From the NCBI RefSeq assembly GCF_964204645.1, contig NC_134028.1, positions 25,292,345-25,356,344 of the forward strand: a stretch of DNA of 64,000 bases. Direction: 5' to 3'. This DNA is from Tubulanus polymorphus (lineage: Eukaryota; Animalia; Nemertea). Every line of letters begins with the position of its first letter. Within the stretch, counting starts at the first letter, position 1. The position numbers and the translations under genes were made by a program. Below the pieces are notes generated by a model that was not told where the DNA came from, searched no databases, and saw only the letters and a list, made by a program, of their open reading frames with translations. This document shows, in pieces, positions 6,190 to 56,657 of this stretch.

Positions 6190-6957
6190 GGCCCACTATA
6201 TTTCCCTGCGGTATAACCTCCTCCCGTCTTGCAGTAGGGCCCAGTATATTTCCCTGCGGTATAACCCCCTCCCGCCTCGCTGTAGGGCCCAGTATATTTC
6301 CCTGCGGTATAACCCCCTCCCGCCTCGCTGTAGGGCTCAGTATATTTCCCTGCGGTATAACCCCCTCCCGCCTCGCTGTAGGGCCCAGTATATTTCCCTG
6401 CGGTATAACCCCCTCCCGCCTCGCTGTAGGGCCCAGTATATTTCCCGGCGGTATAACCCCCTCCCGCCTCGCTGTAGGGCTCAGTATATTTCCCTGCGGT
6501 ATAACCTCCTCCCGTCTTGCAGTAGGGCCCAGTATATTTCCCGGCGGTATAAACCCCTCCCGTCTTGCAGTAGGGCCCAGTATATTTCCCGGCGGTATAA
6601 ACCCCTCCCGTCTTGCAGTAGGGCCCAGTATATTTCCCTGCGGTATAAACCCCTCCCGTCTTGCAGTAGGGCCCAGTATATTTCCCGGCGGTATAAACCC
6701 CTCCCGTCTTGCAATAGGGCCCAGTATATTTCCCTGAGGTATAAACCCCTCCCGTCTTGCAGTAGGGCCCAGTATATTTCCCTGAGGTATAAACCCCTCC
6801 CGTCTTGCAGTAGGGCCCAGTATATTTCCCTGCGGTATAACCCCCTCCCGTCTTGCAGTAGGGCCCAGTATATTTCCCTGCGGTATAAACCCCTCCCGTC
6901 TTGCAGTAGGGCCCAGTATATTTCCCGGCGGTATAAACCCCTCCCGTCTTGCTGTAG
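6190..6957. repeat. 48-bp minisatellite, about 16 copies
   Basis: Unit approximately gggcccagtatatttccctgcggtataaMcccctcccgYctYgcWgta repeated head to tail. Explains the 16-aa-period ORFs in several frames. Confidence 0.97.
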
Positions 6958-28500: not shown

Positions 28501-31500
28501 GAAACGACGCTTGCGCGTGTACACACATAGACGAGTTGACTTATATAACCTCGTCACAACACAAACACATACGACATACAACATACGACATGATGAGGCC
28601 TAGTTTAATCATCGTCTTATACGATAATCATCGAGAGACTATTAAATACTGGGTGGATTGTTGACTTGTGACTAATTAACGCAGTAACAATCTCCATACA
28701 TTTAACTGCAGTTCATCACACCGACTATCCCGCAGTAGTAGCGGGTGTGCTTTAAGAGGATAGCGGTCACGGGTCTCTGACTGGAGCCGATATAGCCAGC
28801 CGACCGTTCATTGAGCACTGTTAGTGACTTGGTAGCCGATTAGTACCCTCAGCCGGTCGAAAGGTTACTGATATAGAAGTGGGCCGGATAGCTGCGTGAG
28901 TGGCCCAGCCGCCCAGCTAGTCGCAGGAAAGCCCGAACAGCTGGTCGTCGAGGTAGGCTAGCTACGGACCGAGAAAGCCACACGACTGGTCACTGACAAG
29001 AGAGCGAATACCAGCCATAATATAGGACATCCATGAATGAATTAAAGAACGAAAGTTTATTCGGCCTTATTTCCGGAAGATATCGCTGATGGCCACACGG
29101 CTGGTTGTATATCGCGCCTGAGGGCTTCTCGTCTGCAACACACCGTGTCACGTGATACGTTTTAATTTGCATAATTCGAGACGTCGAACAGATTTTTTAC
29201 TGCGCTGAAGCTGTTTTCTTTATGCGAGTGATATGCTTTTCTAATCATCTGGAAGGAAGAAATCGCGGTTCGAAACGTTATCAGGGGTAGCCCGTTTTTC
29301 TATTTGATCATCGTTTGAGCGATGCACCGAACAGTCGACGTCGGGTGAAACACTATTTTAACGGCATTTGATGGAAAATTTACGGCTCTCTTCTCTCGGT
29401 TGTGCGAGAAAACACATTTATATCCGTGTATGAAAAACGACTGTTATAATAGACGGGACAATTCTACAATTCTATACTAATGATGTTTTCTCATTCTATG
29501 GCTTAGCGACGAATTTACGAACTGCGGATAGATATAACAAACGTACTTGCTTCTTAGTATTGCTAGTCCGGAAGATGGTTTACTCGTCCTGCGGGACCGT
29601 CGAATCTTTGTGTACCGAAACGACACAATTTCAGGAATTAATTGCAATGTTTGGTTAGGCAAACAAGCGTTGGTGATATTAGTATAAACCTCTTAGCGAA
29701 TAGGCTGACCGGCTTATCGTAGTCCGGACTGAATTTATCACGGAGAACGTCCTACCGAAACTGATACGAAATGCGCCACCGCATTAAACGGCGAAGAGCG
29801 GGCATTTTTAATCTTTCGATACCGAATTACGATTAATGGTAAATGTTTATGAATCTGTATAAGTTGATGTTTGAATATTGACGGTTACAGTCGCGCGTAC
29901 GGTACAATAAGTTCATTAATGGTTTGAGTGATTGGTTAACATATGCTCGTCTACGTTATCGTTGAATCAATGAGCATTGATAACCGGAGTCAATTAGATT
30001 TATACAGTATCGCAACTGTGATAACCGCTTCGAAAATCTGTGCTTAAGTTTCTATTACGCAAAACCGTCCGTCCAAACGTCGACCGCACATCGAGCGGAA
30101 AAGACAAGGACACGAGCAGATCGAATTCTAGAATATAATCGCCGAAAAAACTGGATGTCAAATTTGTGGAGTTTTACATGGCTTTCTCTGATCGAGTACC
30201 AGGTTCAGACTATAGGGATAGTAGTGAGTTGGATGGCCTGTTTAGCTAAGCTGACGTTACTTATAGTGAATATTCTCATGCAAAGTAAGTCTTCTTAATG
30301 TTCTTACTCAATTACCAAAAGTCTTTTTTCAATTCCATGGCGTTTATTACCAACCACACTTGAATGTGTCCCGAAATACGAATTTGTTGATATTTCATTC
30401 CTGGGAAAATTAATGAAACGCTGTTGCCGAAAATGACGTTTGAATATCAGAATAATTACTCGGATCTTTCAAATAGAAAATGGAAATTATAACTGTGTGG
30501 ACTTCTTCATTGGTGCAGAATTGTTGTGTGCATCAAACCACCATGATTATTCGGCCTTTGAATGCTTCTAGGGAATCATGAAGCGAATTCAAGCTTCAAT
30601 GCTGTTGGGAATGGAATTATTTTTCGTACCCATTTCGTGAGTTCACTCAACGATTTCATCGCGTTTGAAAATATCTATAACTTCGGCATTTCTTTTTTCC
30701 TAAAACGCCAATATCCCCGTCGTCGAAAGCCGCGTCTCGATATTCTAATGCTTTATAACCGGAATTTAAAAATGCAGTCGAAATGTAAGCAGCGATCGTT
30801 GCAGGTTTTTTGCACCTTTAGACACGTATTCGAGCATATACGATCGTGTTATAAGTGTAACGTCGATGGTTCGGTGTATGTTATGCGTAGGATTAGATAA
30901 CTTCTTTTTCAAATTATATCATATTCACCTAATCGTTAGACGGGTGTATAGAAAAGCTAATAATTAGAGAATTAGAAATTCAGAATAGTCAGACAGGACC
31001 AACTGGTTCCACGTAAACATTGACTCGGCGAATTAATCAATCGTAGCTTGGAGTGGTCTCCTAACTTATAACCTGTGAAAATGGGGGCCGCTTCACGGGA
31101 CGGCTTAACAATTTGTCAAGGTTTCATGAGTATTGTCGCATCACGACCACGCGAAATTAGACAAGATCTGTTTCTACCGGATCTGCGTTAACATTTGACG
31201 GTGTAATCCCCTAACATAAAACTGCGCAACTGGGGACCGTTTCATTGCTTAGCATTTCATTATGGTTTCATTAGTTTAGTCGCGTTATGACAAACCGAAT
31301 TTTAAGTCAGTTTGTGAAACGACCCCTAGATCTCTGGTCAATGTATTTTTAATGGATGGTCGTTATTGCATATTACATTATCACTAGAACATTCGTTATG
31401 CTTAGAAATGATGGCAATGGGTCATTGTTATTGTGGTAGTTCTATCTCCCCCAGGGGATATATTATCATAAATAGACAGGACCCAGTTACACAGTAAGTT

Positions 31501-35362: not shown

Positions 35363-35516
35363 ATGGATGTTATGAAAAAGTTAACGCTCGTCTGCGTGAT
35401 AATCGTGTGTTCGGGCGCGTGGATGTGTGGTGTCGTTTCCGGTCATAGGGACGATGAGGATACCGAACTGGAACACGAAGAAAATGTGATATCAAAACAA
35501 TCCGGTGATCACCCAG
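35363..35516 (+). CDS. nAChR alpha-type subunit, coding exon 1 (signal peptide plus acidic N-terminal extension)
   Basis: ATG at 35363 opens MDVMKKLTLVCVIIVCSGAWMCGVVSG-HRDDEDTELEHEENVISKQSGDHP, with a basic n-region, hydrophobic h-region and VSG cleavage-like site. It ends CCAG|GTTGTA in phase 1 (154 nt), which joins exon 2 in frame (G+AC=Asp). Not in the ORF track. Confidence 0.8.
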
Positions 35517-38500
35517 GTTGTACATTATTATAGTTTTACCTTATTTACGTAGATTTTAGTTTGTTTTTAACTTTTAGCTTAACAGTATCGAGACTTAAGT
35601 CTAAGAGTTAATAACCTTTGCACTTAAGTCTTTATATACTCTTTACATTTTAGTCTTTGGTCTGATATTCTTTCGACTTAAACTTTGAGACGTTAACCGT
35701 TTACACTTAAATCTATCTGTCTTATTGTGTAGGACTTAAGTCATGAGTCACACAGTCTTTAGACTGATTTAGTATTACGCTCTTTAGACTATGGCACCTA
35801 AATGAAATTCTATTTTTCAAATAATTCCGTGCTTTGAATGATTCTGACTGATGATTATTTGCGGGCCGTTATCTACAACTGTGAGTGAAATCTAACGCAA
35901 AAATAAGTCCGTTTTCAATTCTAAAAATCTAACTCAATTCTCCGGAAGTGGGGCCTGACGTTTTACCGCGCTATTATAACGTCACTCTCTAATGGGAAAA
36001 GTGGGTGTACTAAAGTAGCGGAAATGCGGTCTGGTCAGTGGCGTGCGGTTACTATGGATGTCGATAATGGAATGTCTATTTAAAATACCATTGATCACTT
36101 ATACACAAAATCTCCACGAAATGTGATGAATATTGCGCGACAATAAGGAAGAGATGGAGATAGAGCGATGCGCCACACGAGGCGATGAAAAACATAGGAT
36201 ACATATTAATCCGATTTGAGCCCTGGTTTTATAGACAGCTCGGCTTTCTGTGGCTGCGGGAGGCGGTTAATACAACGCTTTCTTGTTTAACCGTGGGAAT
36301 AACTCGCGCGCTGTATTCTTTTTAAATCTTTTGGGTTTGCTGGATTCGGGGGAACTTATCAGACGTATACAAGTTGATCAAATATTTTTGGGCTGCTCTT
36401 TTTCGTTTTGTCAACAAAAATATGCAGACAAGAATTTTAGTGCAGGAGTACGTTTAATAAGGCAGTTTGGACTTTAAAGTGCCCTTTTAGGATATGTCCT
36501 TCAAAATTTGCCTTAGGATCCGGCGCCGCTCTTAGTTCCCTTATAGATCCACCCTCTGTAGTAGCCGATCTTAAGCGGCATAAACTATTGAAGAGCTAGA
36601 TTCTGACTTCGCGATCAGATACGCATTTTTTCCATATGAGTAGTTGTTAGGAGCTGGCGTTGTGAATAGCACTTTGCGCGCTGCGGTTCGCCTAAATGAA
36701 ATATCTGTTTAACTTGGTAAATAGTTTGTTAATGACTGGCCCGCTTGCGAAGAGCCATGGCACCCGTCGGCAATAACCAATGGATTCTACAAGCCCATAT
36801 CCATTGCGGTATGATTTCAAACAAACACGGATCTCTAATTAAACCATTGGTATTCAACGACTGTCATATCGCGGATTGCATTGAAACCATGGTCGATGAT
36901 CGAATCCAAGACGCGACCATCACAAATATTATCAATTACCTATTTTGTTCTTATGGTTATTTTGTTCTCAAGGTCGCGTGTCAGAAACAAGACACTGTCT
37001 TTTTCAATTCGGAAAATAATATAACAAATGAATATTTCGATTTCCCCTGGTATATGCTCAGGATCGAGTTTTTCGCTAAGGTTTGTAGTTTGAGAATAAT
37101 TCATAAATGAAATGATTCTTACTTTCGGAGTAAAAAAAAAACTAGAACAGTCAAAATCAAATGATTTCCAATTACTAGCTCTGTATATATTCAAGTCAAA
37201 TATAACTTGATGGTGAAATGTTAACGGTTGAATCACTGAGAAGGTATTGTATTATCCGGTATTATTTTTTCACTGTTTCTATTCTCGGACTCTGATGACA
37301 GATACACAACACAATTGTACTGATCACATTTTCCCTTTAGGCGTCTTATGATAGTTCTACGATAACGAGTCCATTAATTGGTATATAAAGCTACAGCTCT
37401 GTAGAAATCTAATCAGCTATTTTCATGTCGTTCATTACGGCAATATGTAACACCGCTTCATATATGTGATCATAAAAATATGTCATTCTTAATGCGCTAG
37501 ATACTGGCATTCGGGTACACTGAACTAACCCCTGCCTCCACCTGAGTTAGCCTACACGTCACACGTGCCTTCCTTGCAACATCTCGATTAGGCGATCAAA
37601 TATGATAATATGTATAAATATATAAGATGAAATCCCACGATACGAAAAAGCAAGTCCGAGAGGTTTCTTTGCTTATATTTATTCGACGTATCGACTCAAC
37701 AGAGTGTTCCTGGATACGACTATCAGGATATAGTCGGAGCGTTCCCAGATACGACTAGCAGGATAGTCGAATGAAACATTAGTTCAAGGAAACTTTTTGG
37801 ACTCGTTTCTTTTGTACCGTTGGATTTTATCTTGGCCGTCGTAAACGTAGCTATGTTTCTGAGTGCGCCCTGATAAATGGTTTTTTCATCATTACGCATT
37901 AGCGATATACGAATCAAGTGGTTGCACGAAGGCCACGTGTTACAGAGAGCAGTCGACACATCTCTCAAATTGGCATTGTTAAACCGATAGACTCCGATCA
38001 GAAATATTGTCGAAGGACCTAGCGTTTTCGATTTCAGTGCCTTGTCGTGCACGGAGCTCCTATTCGAATAATAAGCAGCCTTCGCCATATTCGAAATGAT
38101 ATTCAACTGAAAATAATGACATCGGAGAAAGAAAAATCTTTGAATTAATTGAAATAAAAGTTCGTCCGTCCGCGAAAATAATGAACGGCGCAGTTTTGCG
38201 ATGAAACATACATGTTTGTATCCGATAGGAAAATGATTAATTGGCTTCGCTGAGTAACTTGTATTACTTGTATTACTTCTATTACTCCGGAGAAATATCG
38301 TCATATTAAAAGGTGGAGGAAATAGGCAAACATCCTGTTACATGTACATAGTTCTAGAAAATGAATTGATTAGTTAAATTCATGTATAAAGCCGCTACGT
38401 AAATAATACCATAAGAGTTAGAATTTTACGAGTAAAGATGAGACGATGATGTATTGATATCGCAGATCCATGGAACATTATAATCTATTCAATCCCCGAT

Positions 38501-45710: not shown

Positions 45711-45904
45711 ACGGTATTGCGGTCTCCGAAGAGAAAAGGTTGATAAAACACTTATTAGATGATTACGAGATGGTCGGAGTGGTTGGTCGACCTGTACTCA
45801 ATACGTCGAACACGATTCGAGTAGAATTCGGTCTGGCTCTCATTCAAATACTCGATTTAGATGAAAAAAATCAAGTGCTCACTACAAACTGCTGGAGTAG
45901 ATAT
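45711..45904 (+). CDS. nAChR subunit coding exon 2 (N-terminal helix to loop D)
   Basis: tttgcag| acceptor and |gtaagt donor. Encodes DGIAVSEEKRLIKHLLDDY...GRPVLNTSNTIRVEFGLALIQILDLDEKNQVLTTNCWSRY, with typical nAChR RPV and LIQI-D-DEKNQ-L-TN-W motifs. Confidence 0.96.
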
Positions 45905-49274: not shown

Positions 49275-49384
49275 CACTGGATAGATATTTTACTCCAATG
49301 GAACCCTGATGATTTCGGTGGAGTGAAAGAAGTCCGCATACCTATAGATAAAGTATGGACACCTGACATCGTCCTATATAATTA
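49275..49384 (+). CDS. nAChR subunit coding exon 3 (110 nt, loop A)
   Basis: tttgtag| acceptor and |gtgagt donor. Encodes [36 protein letters not shown](Y), containing the W-P-D-I-V-L-Y-N loop A motif. Phases 0/2 fit neighbouring exons. Not in the ORF track. Confidence 0.96.
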
Positions 49385-50114: not shown

Positions 50115-50569
50115 TGCTGATGACCGTCTAGAAGAGAAACGCAAAGCCATGGCCGTTGTATCCAACGATGGATCAGTTTTATATATACCGCCAGCCATCT
50201 TCAAAAGTTCGTGCCCGATAAACACTGAACATTTCCCCTTCGATTACCAGCGATGCGACTTGAAATTCGGATCGTGGACGTACGACGGTTTCAAGTTGGA
50301 CATAGGTTTTTTCGACAGCAAAGACGAAGTGGATTTAACCGATTATATACCAAGCAACGAATGGGATGTCATATCCCATCCGGCAATTAAGAATACTAAA
50401 TATTATCCATGCTGTAAAGAACCTTATCCAGACCTGACATTTACTGTCGTCATTAAAAGGAAATCTGCTTTTTACAATTACATTCTAATACTGCCGTGTG
50501 TACTGTTATCGTCCTTGACCTTGGTGGTGTTCTGGTTGCCCCCGGAATCTCCCGCTAAAATGGTACTGG
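50115..50569 (+). CDS. nAChR subunit coding exon 4 (Cys-loop, loops B and C, M1, start of M2)
   Basis: tttgcag| acceptor and G|gtacgt donor. Contains Cys-loop CPINTEHFPFDYQRC (C-x13-C), loop B FGSWTYDG, loop C KYYPCCKEPYPD (vicinal cysteines mark an alpha subunit), M1 YILILPCVLLSSLTLVVFWLP and the linker PPESPAKMVLG. Confidence 0.98.
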
Positions 50570-51793
50570 GTACGTATTTTTTTATTTCTTTTTTTCTAGA
50601 TTACAATAACAACCTTTTTCAAATTCTGCATTACTATTAGGACTTTCAATATGTTTGAGATTTATTGCTATATTCGTCGTATACGTGACTGTTCTTGAAC
50701 TTTAACCATCCCATATAAAGGCTAATATGTCAAGAAATTAAGTATAGAAGTTCCTGGACCCAGTTCTGCAGTTGGTAGATAAAAAAAAATTATATTATGC
50801 TTTGGAGTCGATAAGGACTAGATCCTGTAAGTCAAATCAAAATAAGAATATAGGTAAAGACTGTTCATGAATTTTCGTTTTGATTTTAGCTTTCAAAGCG
50901 GTCTATGCTAATAGAGCACTTGCTTACGCTGACTCAAGAACAAACATGTTTATCCAAGATTCAATTCATCGACTTTAAGTTGATAATAAAGAATGCATTA
51001 TCACATTTCGTGGTAACCACTACATATGATTATAAAGGATCTATGGACATGTCGATAATTTTCGATCATGGATATTTGTCGACTTTTCTGACATTTGGAT
51101 TGATATTTTTGAATTTACATGGAAAACTGTTTTTGATGAATATGAGTTGCGAATGACCATTAGAAGTAAATATTTCTGATACGTCACCATGACCCCCCGT
51201 GGGGTGCTGCAAATAGGTGATAAAAATAGAACGCTAATTTAACCTGAGTTAACAGTAATTATCACTATATACATCCAGGTTGTTTATGGGACAGAGCAAA
51301 AATTCTTTAAGGCTGTGGACTATGAGATTAGATTGAATCTTGATGGATTTTTGGTTTAGTATTCATATCGATATTGTATTGTAAATTTTTGTGATTCGAT
51401 TTTCAATGTTTCACCTCGCCCGCAGCCAAAACTTCGACGTGAAAACTTGATCGCAACCGTCCTTTTCGAATCGTCGCATCATCCAACTTTGTCCCACTAA
51501 ATCACTAAATCGGAAAGGATTTCTTTGGATGATAGGAAAAATATTCCATTTTCAACTATCAAAAAAATTCTACAGAATTCAATTCATTTAACTATTAGAT
51601 TCATTTTCATGCTCCTGAATTAACCATATAATCCTATTTGGCTATTTCAACCTAGTGTTGTTATCGACGATTCCACTTGTGGCAAGTAGGGTCCACCAGT
51701 CGGCAATAGCGTGCAGTAGGACAGCAACGCTGTATTCCATCTCAGATTCAATCAAGATATATAATATGTATAATGCTCGTTTCATCGAGTAAT

Positions 51794-51995
51794 GTCCTAC
51801 TGTAACCCACGCCATCTGGTGGTATAGCTAGCTAGTATGGCTTAAGTAAGCCACGCCATCTGGCGGCCTTGAAAGAAATTTATCTTACTGTTAGCCACGC
51901 AATCTGGTGGCTTTAAGAGAAGTAGGTCCTACTAATAGCAACGCCATCAGCTTACTAGAATATCCTACTGTGAAGGACGCCATCTGGTGGAATAG
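51794..51995. repeat. Degenerate ~44-bp tandem array, each unit carrying a CGCCATCTGGTGG-like core
   Basis: Cores start at 51810, 51854, 51898, 51942 (degenerate) and 51978, with spacing 44, 44, 44 and 36. Confidence 0.85.
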
Positions 51996-52108: not shown

Positions 52109-52195
52109 GTATGAACATATTTGTGGCATTTTTCGTGCTGTTGCTTCTTTTAGCAGACACGACCCCGCCGGCAGCCAGGAAAATCCCGTTGATAG
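52109..52195 (+). CDS. nAChR subunit alternative exon 5a (M2 helix and M2-M3 loop)
   Basis: ttttcag| acceptor, G|gtaggg donor, 87 nt, phase 1/1. Encodes (G)MNIFVAFFVLLLLLADTTPPAARKIPLI(G). Confidence 0.92.
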
Positions 52196-52421
52196 GTAGG
52201 GGACCAGCCGGCCAACATAAACAAATTCTTCGACCCAGTGTACCCATCTATCTATCTCTCCTGGAAATCACTCCGTGGCATGTTTTACCACTGTAGCTTC
52301 CGTGATCTGTACGTGACTTCCGGAGAGGTCGCATACAGTCGCGCCATCTATATCTGACCTATATTTATATTATTATATGTATCTGAACTGAGACGACGGA
52401 CGTTGTTTTTATACATTTCAG

Positions 52422-52508
52422 GAATGAATATTTTTGTGGCCTTCTTTTTGTTACTACTTTTGTTGGCAGATGTAACTCCGCCCGCTGCGAGTAACGTACC
52501 CCGTATAG
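52422..52508 (+). CDS. nAChR subunit alternative exon 5b (duplicate M2 helix and M2-M3 loop)
   Basis: atttcag| acceptor, G|gtaaaa donor, 87 nt, phase 1/1. Encodes (G)MNIFVAFFLLLLLLADVTPPAASNVPRI(G); 23 of 29 residues are identical to exon 5a. Confidence 0.92.
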
Positions 52509-55492: not shown

Positions 55493-55611
55493 GTGCGTAC
55501 TATTGCTTAAACATGATTCTCATTACACTGTCAACGTTCTTGTCCGTTATAGTCATAAACCTATACTTCCGTGGTGATAGAAAAAACCGTGTACCAAGAT
55601 GGCTAAAACTG
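55493..55611 (+). CDS. nAChR subunit coding exon 6 (M3 and MX start)
   Basis: ccttgcag| acceptor and |gtacgt donor. Encodes (G)AYYCLNMILITLSTFLSVIVINLYFRGDRKNRVPRWLKL, the M3 helix followed by the conserved P-x-W motif. Confidence 0.96.
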
Positions 55612-55668
55612 GTACGTACCGTATTACAACAATGTATTACAAAGTATTACAGGTCATTGGGGCACCGA

Positions 55669-56007
55669 CATCCTCCCCCGGCAGGGATTCGAACCTGATG
55701 GCATCGAGATTGCCACGGCACGAAACCCTGCCATTATCGACCGTGTGCGCAGATACATGCGCAGTTCAGATGATGTGATTTTTAGCCAATCAGAAATCCC
55801 GTTTTATTTTAGCCCGGGGTTTCCCATTTATAGTTCTTCCTTGAAATTTGCCTCAACGATTATACAACGAGCAATCTGATTGGTGCCGCCAGTTTTCGTT
55901 CGGAAAGCTGCGCATGTACCTGCGCACCCGGTCTACTGATGCAGGGGTTCGTGCCGTGGCTGAGTGTAGAGATGCCATCAGGTTCGAGTCCCTGCAGAGG
56001 GAGGATG
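55669..56007. mobile_element. Non-autonomous Mutator/foldback-type element with ~100-bp TIRs and a 9-bp TSD
   Basis: Arms 55669-55766 and 55905-56007 are imperfect reverse complements (CATCCTCCC...GGGAGGATG). The direct repeat gggcaccga flanks it at 55660-55668 and 56008-56016. Confidence 0.8.
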
Positions 56008-56183
56008 GGGCACCGACGGCACGCACTAGATGGCGCACCATGTTTTATATCGTTAATATATATTGACTTACCATACGATACGCGCGCCATCTAGTGGGAT
56101 AAGCACGTGGTTGTTATTATTATTGATCGGTTTTAATTGTCGTTTCGAACTCATTATCTTCAACCTCTCATTTTGTGTCGTAG

Positions 56184-56657
56184 GTGATGGTGGATTTCCT
56201 CGCGTGTTTGATGTGTTTGCGCGGAGAAATCATTCCCGAAGAACAAAAACGTTTAGAAACTGTCAAAACCGACGGTAAAACGAAAGACAAGAAGAAAATC
56301 AAATGCCCAGAGTTAAAATATAACAAATTCCAAATGTCAGACGTCTACCGAGACGGGAATCACGCCCGCAACCACGCCGAGTCGACCTCACCGGACAAAT
56401 CTCCGATTCATCTAAGTCATTCTCTTGAATCAGACGTCAGAGAAATAAGGCGCCAAATACGAACTATTATGCACCGAATAACGGACAAAGAGGCGCAGGC
56501 CAAAGTGAATCTGGAATGGCGAATTGTGGCGCTCGTTTTAGACCGGTTGTTTTTCTTCATTTATCTAACTACGATCATTGTGTCGCTAGCGACCATATTC
56601 CCCAGAACGCAAAACATATCCGACGTCACAGAGACGACCACGCCCGGCACGTCCTGA
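56184..56657 (+). CDS. nAChR subunit final coding exon 7 (intracellular loop, MA, M4, C-terminus)
   Basis: tgtcgtag| acceptor in phase 0. Contains EWRIVALVLDRLFFFIYLTTIIVSLATIF (MA-M4 signature) and ends at TGA 56655-56657. Spliced CDS is 154+194+110+455+87+119+474=1593 nt, or 530 aa. Confidence 0.96.
   Translation: MMVDFLACLMCLRGEIIPEEQKRLETVKTDGKTKDKKKIKCPELKYNKFQMSDVYRDGNHARNHAESTSPDKSPIHLSHSLESDVREIRRQIRTIMHRITDKEAQAKVNLEWRIVALVLDRLFFFIYLTTIIVSLATIFPRTQNISDVTETTTPGTS

What the first reader, a model, noticed from the sequence alone, without database searches (positions are those of the whole stretch)
52135..52504. The six 5a/5b differences hit the pore-lining 13' position and move charges in the gating loop
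Seen, numbering the Lys of PAK as 0': 13' is Val (5a) or Leu (5b) and 21' is Thr or Val. The M2-M3 loop is AARKIPLI or AASNVPRI, so 5a has two basic residues before the conserved Pro and 5b has one after it. Known: 13' faces the pore and affects gating, desensitisation and selectivity in alpha7, and the M2-M3 loop couples agonist binding to opening. Inference: splicing tunes gating, conductance or blocker sensitivity while the ACh site stays identical, and mixed pentamers could give graded properties.
Basis: partly seen in the sequence, partly recalled or inferred. Interest (0 to 1): 0.7.

Follow-up and report, generated by a model that had tools for sequence, protein, structure and literature searches.

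The report
Either-or pore exons, inhibitory acetylcholine receptor
A gene for a likely chloride-passing (inhibitory) acetylcholine receptor of an invertebrate carries two intact copies of the exon for its pore helix, likely used one at a time to tune how the channel opens, and a similar valine-or-leucine exon choice appears in database gene models of related receptors in a brachiopod, octopuses and a sea slug.

Summary
Two 87-nt exons (52109-52195, 52422-52508) differ at six residues: 13' V/L, 21' T/V, 27' R/S, 28' K/N, 29' I/V, 31' L/R. Both are under purifying selection (pS 0.94, pN 0.15) and stand in tandem in a second sample's DNA.

The gene is not alpha7-like in its pore. It has the Pro-Ala motif of chloride-type nicotinic receptors (Lymnaea, Schistosoma), in a constant exon. 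Only 13' lines the pore. The charge changes are local to this lineage.

What recurs is 13'. Database isoforms of single genes swap this exon in Lingula, Octopus, Aplysia and scallops. 13' differs in 6 of 8 pairs, and 13' with 29' in 5 of 8, which hints at one ancient exon pair rather than repeated origins.

No RNA was available for this organism, so exclusive splicing and any effect on gating are inferred. The design parallels insect alpha6 exon 8. This scan found the same switch earlier in octopus DNA. My searches found no paper on it in this clade. Verdict: new variant of a known kind, first reading partly supported.

The parts
35363..35516 (+). Candidate first exon with signal-peptide-like start; donor uncertain (35516 or 35519)
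   Evidence: Script scan for ATG, hydrophobic stretch and phase-1 GT; gives 530 or 531 aa; no homology or RNA support
45711..45904 (+). Exon 2, start of the ligand-binding domain
   Evidence: Pfam PF02931 positions 1-54
49275..49384 (+). Exon 3, ligand-binding domain
50115..50569 (+). Exon 4: Cys-loop, loop C with vicinal cysteines, M1, and M2 up to 3'
   Evidence: PF02931 98-215 and PF02932 1-29
50551..50559 (+). Pro-Ala-Lys motif (-2', -1', 0'), shared by both isoforms
   Evidence: aligns on Gly-Glu-Lys of alpha4 in the closest relative
52109..52195 (+). Exon 5a: M2 from 4' and M2-M3 loop; V13', T21', R27', K28', I29', L31'
52196..52421 (+). 226-nt intron between the alternative exons; branch-point-like CTGAC at 52354
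   Evidence: no RNA fold beyond shuffles (z -0.49)
52422..52508 (+). Exon 5b: M2 from 4' and M2-M3 loop; L13', V21', S27', N28', V29', R31'
   Evidence: shares L13', V21' and a non-Leu 31' with the Lineus exon
55493..55611 (+). Exon 6, M3
   Evidence: PF02932 61-97, leaving room in the profile for one copy of exon 5 only
56184..56657 (+). Exon 7, intracellular loop, M4, stop

Best explanation
The gene holds two intact, selected copies of the pore-helix exon, which are likely spliced one at a time to give two subunits of a likely chloride-passing acetylcholine receptor that would differ in opening and desensitisation rather than in ion charge or acetylcholine binding. Shown: the two exons, their six differences, selection on both, the shared Pro-Ala motif and binding domain, and the same exon swapped in database isoforms of relatives. 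Inferred: either-or use in this animal, chloride selectivity, and the effect on gating. The likely working parts are the Val/Leu at 13', which would change the bulk of the hydrophobic ring above the 9' gate, and 27'-31' around the conserved Pro30', which would change how tightly the binding domain drives the pore. Exclusivity is probably set by splicing factors or splice-site competition and may leak.
For: Exon anatomy and selection. Pfam has room for one copy. Eight isoform pairs from eight species are identical up- and downstream and differ only in this exon: Lingula, two Octopus, Aplysia, four scallops; these are 4 of the 30 clusters looked up. Four unnamed 500-504-aa Logan proteins on contigs of 2.1-2.6 kb carry the Leu exon joined to both neighbours, which implies spliced transcripts of a close relative of the Octopus gene. 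Tandem copies also show in gene models of Dimorphilus and Pinctada and in unnamed read-through ORFs P0344 and P0347. Pro-Ala marks chloride-type receptors (PMC4055736). 13' is pore-exposed with a 1,970-fold state-dependent change in reactivity (PMC2217151). S269 (27') and P272 (30') form the gating socket and S269L enhances gating (PMC2483337).
Against: No transcript of this organism was seen. All 5 annotated Lineus isoforms use the 5b-like exon only, so 5a may be minor or lost there. V/L at 13' is a mild change that also varies between single-exon genes. In Torpedo alpha1, S269A shifted EC50 only 2.5-fold and changing all four loop residues 266-269 had almost no effect (PMC10899235). Including both exons keeps the frame, Argopecten has an annotated both-included isoform, and several genes have skipped isoforms, so exclusivity is not strict by design. 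The 226-nt intron and flat folding score give no mechanism. RefSeq isoforms are predictions whose read support I did not see.
Confidence: 0.6

Rival explanations
1. Both exons are used, but one dominates and the two receptors behave nearly alike; the pair persists because each must encode a working pore.
For: 22 of 28 residues are identical. Lineus isoforms show one exon only. In silkworm alpha6 only exon 8b was recovered from cDNA clones (PMC1919356). Loop changes can be nearly silent (PMC10899235).
Against: 13' differs in 6 of 8 pairs against 3.1 expected (P 0.03). Both copies stayed intact through saturation of silent sites.
Confidence: 0.2
2. One reading: moved charges in the loop and the 13' change alter conductance, ion selectivity or blocker sensitivity, and mixed pentamers grade these.
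For: 5a has R27' and K28', 5b has R31'. 13' lines the blocker-protected stretch of the pore (PMC2217151) and was one of three changes that made alpha7 anionic (PMC6800317). Basic residues near the outer mouth could attract chloride (inference).
Against: Pro-Ala and D20' are shared. The charge pattern recurs in none of the other 7 pairs as such. V13'T alone did not change selectivity in alpha7. Positions 27'-31' sit at the domain interface rather than in the pore.
Confidence: 0.12
3. One form (or the skipped and doubled forms) is a poorly gating or non-assembling subunit that damps the receptor.
For: R31' replaces a Leu kept in 77 of 93 exons, and R27'K28' is unique among them. Skipped isoforms are annotated in Octopus, Aplysia and scallops.
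Against: Basic 31' occurs in rotifer and Macrostomum models with a single such exon in the protein, and Lineus has Gln there in its only annotated exon.
Confidence: 0.07
4. One exon is a dead copy or an assembly duplicate.
For: No transcript seen for this organism.
Against: Saturated silent divergence with pN 0.15, intact splice sites, and both exons on one contig of another sample.
Confidence: 0.01

Closest known systems
Insect nAChR alpha6 exons 8a/8b/8c (PMC1919356, PMC2064938, PMC12309072; passages read)
   Same: Tandem duplicated exon encoding TM2 in a nicotinic subunit, mutually exclusive use, proposed to alter channel properties, long conservation.
   Different: Alpha6 is a Gly-Glu-Lys cation-type subunit; this gene has Pro-Ala-Lys and groups with lophotrochozoan chloride-type subunits. 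Two copies here, two or three there. Insect use is shown by RT-PCR; here it is not. The recurring difference here is Val/Leu at 13'.
Chloride-type nicotinic receptors of Lymnaea (types B and F by database name) and Schistosoma SmACC-1/2 (PMC4055736, passages; van Nierop 2005 not held, seen only as cited)
   Same: Pro-Ala in place of Gly-Glu, vicinal cysteines, near-identical M2; tree rows include Lymnaea type F and Biomphalaria type B.
   Different: No alternative pore exon is described in the passages I read. The mollusc type-B-like clusters I looked up show one M2 sequence per species. The window gene lies with Lineus, annelid, Lingula and flatworm genes (SH-aLRT 87, not starred), not inside the mollusc B group.
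Octopus either-or pore exon noted earlier in this scan (e1-8669970, e1-8830959; unchecked AI notes)
   Same: Same exon, same Val/Leu choice at 13', same receptor class.
   Different: A different paralogue and phylum; the Octopus Leu exon is one codon shorter and has no charge change. Those notes read the cases as repeated origins; the 13'/29' link found here keeps a single old origin open.

Membership tests
Pro-Ala (chloride-type) nicotinic receptor subunits | Nicotinic ligand-binding and transmembrane domains | tested here: met
   PF02931 and PF02932 on exons 2, 4, 6, 7
Pro-Ala (chloride-type) nicotinic receptor subunits | Vicinal cysteines of an alpha subunit (YxCC) | tested here: met
   At 50401-50415
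Pro-Ala (chloride-type) nicotinic receptor subunits | Pro-Ala replacing Gly-Glu before M2 | tested here: met
   50551-50559; feature named as defining in PMC4055736
Pro-Ala (chloride-type) nicotinic receptor subunits | Groups with Lymnaea and Schistosoma chloride-type subunits | tested here: met
   Tree of 58 rows with the M2 exon removed, SH-aLRT 100 for the 56 ingroup rows; only two vertebrate outgroup rows and no invertebrate cation-type row, so a weak test
Pro-Ala (chloride-type) nicotinic receptor subunits | Acetylcholine-gated chloride current | not testable with these tools
   Needs expression and ion substitution
Mutually exclusive tandem duplicated exons | Adjacent homologous exons of equal phase with canonical splice sites | tested here: met
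Mutually exclusive tandem duplicated exons | Both copies under coding constraint | tested here: met
   pS 0.94, pN 0.15, simulation
Mutually exclusive tandem duplicated exons | Transcripts carry one copy or the other | tested here: inconclusive
   No RNA holder listed for this organism; met in annotated isoforms of relatives, with one both-included model in Argopecten
Mutually exclusive tandem duplicated exons | A mechanism that prevents double inclusion | tested here: inconclusive
   Frame kept on double inclusion, 226-nt intron, folding z -0.49, no outstanding inverted repeat among the 25 longest of 187
Insect alpha6 exon 8 system | Alpha6-type cation subunit with Gly-Glu-Lys | tested here: not met
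   Pro-Ala-Lys here; GEK stated for insect subunits in PMC12309072
Insect alpha6 exon 8 system | Alternative exon encodes TM2 | tested here: met
   identical exon borders are recalled, not tested
Insect alpha6 exon 8 system | Exon copies descend from the insect duplication | not tested
   No insect exon sequences were fetched

The most novel reading that the evidence does not exclude
The Val13'/Ile29' exon and the Leu13'/Val29' exon are one ancient pair, older than the split of molluscs, annelids, brachiopods and ribbon worms. It was carried through gene duplications of the chloride-type receptors, most genes later fixed one copy, and the splice choice sets fast- versus slow-desensitising inhibitory acetylcholine currents. 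Support: 13' and 29' change together in 5 of 8 pairs (null 1.3, P 0.002 before correcting for my choosing 29' after seeing the data), the Ile29' copy comes first in all 3 such pairs whose order is known, and across 96 distinct exons Leu13' goes with Val29' 19 times against Ile 7, Val13' with Val29' 3 times against Ile 45 (not independent).
Probability: 0.35. Interest if true: 0.7.

Novelty: new variant of a known kind. Interest (0 to 1): 0.5.

Why it matters
Inhibitory acetylcholine receptors are a feature of molluscs, worms and flukes, and the molecular basis of their varied kinetics is little studied. A two-state splice switch at a pore-lining position gives a natural, minimal pair for testing what 13' and the gating loop do in a chloride-type nicotinic channel, and it can be tested in Aplysia or Octopus, where neurons can be recorded. 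It also shows that the pore exon was duplicated in both cation-type (insect) and chloride-type branches. The design itself is known from insects, the function is untested, and this scan has already met it in octopus, which caps the interest.

Tried and rejected
RNA evidence: no RNA holder listed; X1-X3 cover introns and show no exon-exon joints among the rows shown, X4 hit only 35 bases. This is a blank, not evidence. No whole genome is held, so paralogues in this animal were not searched.

Exclusivity mechanism: no fold beyond shuffles, no Rfam match, no convincing docking-type inverted repeat; frame-shift decay ruled out as the mechanism.

Origin: genes with two exons need 6 changes on the tree, at least 5 on starred branches, but rows scored as single-exon rest on annotation alone, so gain and loss cannot be told apart. 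The independent-pairs test of 13' against 29' in 41 single-exon rows had only 3 pairs and no power. One Armadillidium row was dropped from the tree because its M2 region was mis-modelled; one Owenia exon fell outside the pattern used for counts.

A short PDB query did not reach alpha7 or alpha1; prime numbers for alpha1 come from L251 = 9' (PMC6800317). The role of L273 (31') in coupling is recalled; the passages shown did not cover it. Van Nierop 2005 and a recalled Aplysia paper on two chloride currents are not held (search 64). No structure or complex was predicted: a nicotinic pentamer would pass by likeness and cannot show gating.

Rejected: switch of cation/anion selectivity by splicing; assembly artefact; dead exon.

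Full report
Observation. The window holds a nicotinic receptor gene on the + strand. Exons 2 to 7 join to an open frame of 478 residues with either copy of exon 5. Exons 5a (52109-52195) and 5b (52422-52508) are 87 nt each, with AG..GT ends, the same phase and a 226-nt intron between them. Of 28 whole codons, 14 differ silently and 6 change the residue: 13' V/L, 21' T/V, 27' R/S, 28' K/N, 29' I/V, 31' L/R. The prime numbering is right: the nearest full-length relative aligns gap-free to human alpha4 across M1-M3. The 530-aa length needs a first exon at 35363-35516, which looks like a signal peptide but has an uncertain donor.

Both copies are alive as coding sequence. Silent sites are saturated (pS 0.94) while pN is 0.15. 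In simulations a copy dead since duplication kept no stop and 6 or fewer changes in at most 0.05% of 20,000 runs at total dS 0.75, and about 2% at dS 0.5, which is below the observed divergence. One contig from a second sample carries both exons with no change in either. Pfam's transmembrane model covers positions 1-29 in exon 4 and 61-97 in exon 6, leaving room for one copy. No RNA run was available.

What the gene is. It has the vicinal cysteines of an alpha subunit and Pro-Ala-Lys where cation channels have Gly-Glu-Lys. PMC4055736 (passages) names Pro-Ala as the mark of chloride-type nicotinic receptors of Lymnaea and Schistosoma. The named invertebrate hits of exon 4 are almost all from molluscs, annelids, nemerteans, brachiopods, bryozoans, flatworms and rotifers. 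The nearest row is Lineus longissimus, 73% over 410 columns with the M2 exon removed, though its place in the tree is not firmly supported. Chloride selectivity is therefore inferred. The motif lies in constant exon 4, so both isoforms share it.

The exon choice recurs. I looked up 30 clusters. Four contain annotated isoforms that differ only in this exon: Lingula, Octopus (two species), Aplysia (the type-F-like gene) and scallops (four species). In all 8 pairs the flanks are identical. Four unnamed full-length Logan proteins on contigs of 2.1-2.6 kb carry the Leu exon joined to both neighbours. Tandem copies also appear in gene models of Dimorphilus and Pinctada and in read-through ORFs P0344 (both copies in frame) and P0347 (second copy out of frame, 13' unreadable). 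The other 26 clusters gave no such pair; one of them is the all-Leu Logan cluster just named. All 5 full-length Lineus isoforms use an exon like 5b (L13', V21', Q31'), the only other L13'+V21' exon among 93, so 5b probably matches the Lineus exon.

Which differences matter. Taking 8 pairs (window, Lingula, Octopus, Aplysia, P0344, Dimorphilus, scallop, Pinctada; P0347 left out), 13' differs in 6, against 3.1 under a null weighted by column variability (P 0.03). It is Val/Leu in 5, Phe/Leu in 1 and Val/Val in the two bivalve pairs. In the window, Octopus and P0344 it is the only change from 5' to 20'. In 5 of the 6 pairs that differ at 13', the Leu copy also has Val29' and the other Ile29' (null 1.3 of 8, P 0.002; chosen after seeing the data, so nearer 0.04 if some 20 positions are counted). 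In the 3 of these with known order the Ile29' copy is upstream.

Mechanism. With alpha1 L251 as 9' (PMC6800317, passages), 13' is V255, 27' is S269 and 30' is P272. V255C is accessible in the channel and reacts 1,970-fold faster with acetylcholine present; 263 (21') is not among the nine positions listed (PMC2217151, passages). S269 and P272 form the socket for V46, and S269L enhances gating (PMC2483337, passages). Against a large effect, S269A gave only 2.5-fold and a fourfold loop substitution almost nothing (PMC10899235, passages). In alpha7, V13'T helped the switch to anions only with the added proline. I infer a change in opening and desensitisation, with ion charge and agonist binding fixed (0.6). 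How double inclusion is avoided is open: the frame survives it, the intron is not very short, and the RNA folds no better than shuffles. Argopecten has a both-included model and several genes have skipped models.

Origin. Two-exon genes are scattered over the tree, 6 changes, at least 5 forced by starred branches. That fits repeated gains or an old pair with losses; absence rests on annotation only. The 13'/29' link, the shared order, and a one-codon-shorter Leu exon in both Lingula and Octopus lean towards an old pair. Aplysia (Ile29' in both), the bivalve pairs (Val13' in both) and the powerless independent-pairs test do not support it. I give it 0.35.

Known and new. Insect alpha6 has mutually exclusive TM2 exons 8a-c, older than the insect orders (PMC1919356, PMC2064938, PMC12309072; passages). 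This works like that system but is not a member, as the subunit type differs. Searches for alternative pore exons in chloride-type or lophotrochozoan nicotinic receptors and for oocyte tests of insect 8a/8b listed no such paper; I saw listings and abstract starts only for most hits, subscription journals are missing, and I opened no supplements. PMC6896357 (passages) surveys exon structure in these receptors without a passage on it. PMC8414863 and PMC4990912 (passages) only confirm that chloride-type receptors exist in Lymnaea. Two earlier notes of this scan report the Octopus case; I had found it independently.

Verdict. Real feature, observation confirmed, interpretation partly supported. 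New variant of a known kind, interest 0.5.

Noticed in passing
window 51791-51995: Four to five copies of a roughly 44-bp repeat 110-320 bases upstream of exon 5a, with a core that resembles the reverse of the CTCF motif (resemblance recalled). It holds 4 of the 5 matches to the longer pattern in the window. Run X2 has a separate contig with tandem copies of the unit, so a minisatellite is the plain reading.
   Followed up: partly
proteins P0368 and P0369 (Ruditapes philippinarum isoforms X1 and X3): By eye the two isoforms share both ends but differ across the whole of the exon-4 equivalent (Cys-loop, loop C, M1), which suggests an alternative ligand-binding exon in a clam chloride-type receptor.
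   Followed up: no
window 52123 and 52436: The 9' gate residue is Val in both exons rather than the usual Leu; Val in 60 of 96 family exons.
   Followed up: partly
window about 55668-56070: Very high-copy element in the intron before exon 7 (summed contig depth 4,500 to 107,000 in the peak bin, many loose ends), likely a mobile repeat.
   Followed up: no
window about 6250-6950: A 48-bp tandem array, seen as a 16-residue repeat in minus-strand translations.
   Followed up: no
window 30155-30284 and 35363-35519: Possible alternative first exons with hydrophobic starts; the Lineus isoforms shown also differ at the N-terminus.
   Followed up: partly
proteins P0150, P0269, P0271, P0314, P0084, P0103: Annotated isoforms in Aplysia, Octopus and scallops skip the M2 exon altogether, giving an in-frame subunit without a pore helix.
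   Followed up: no
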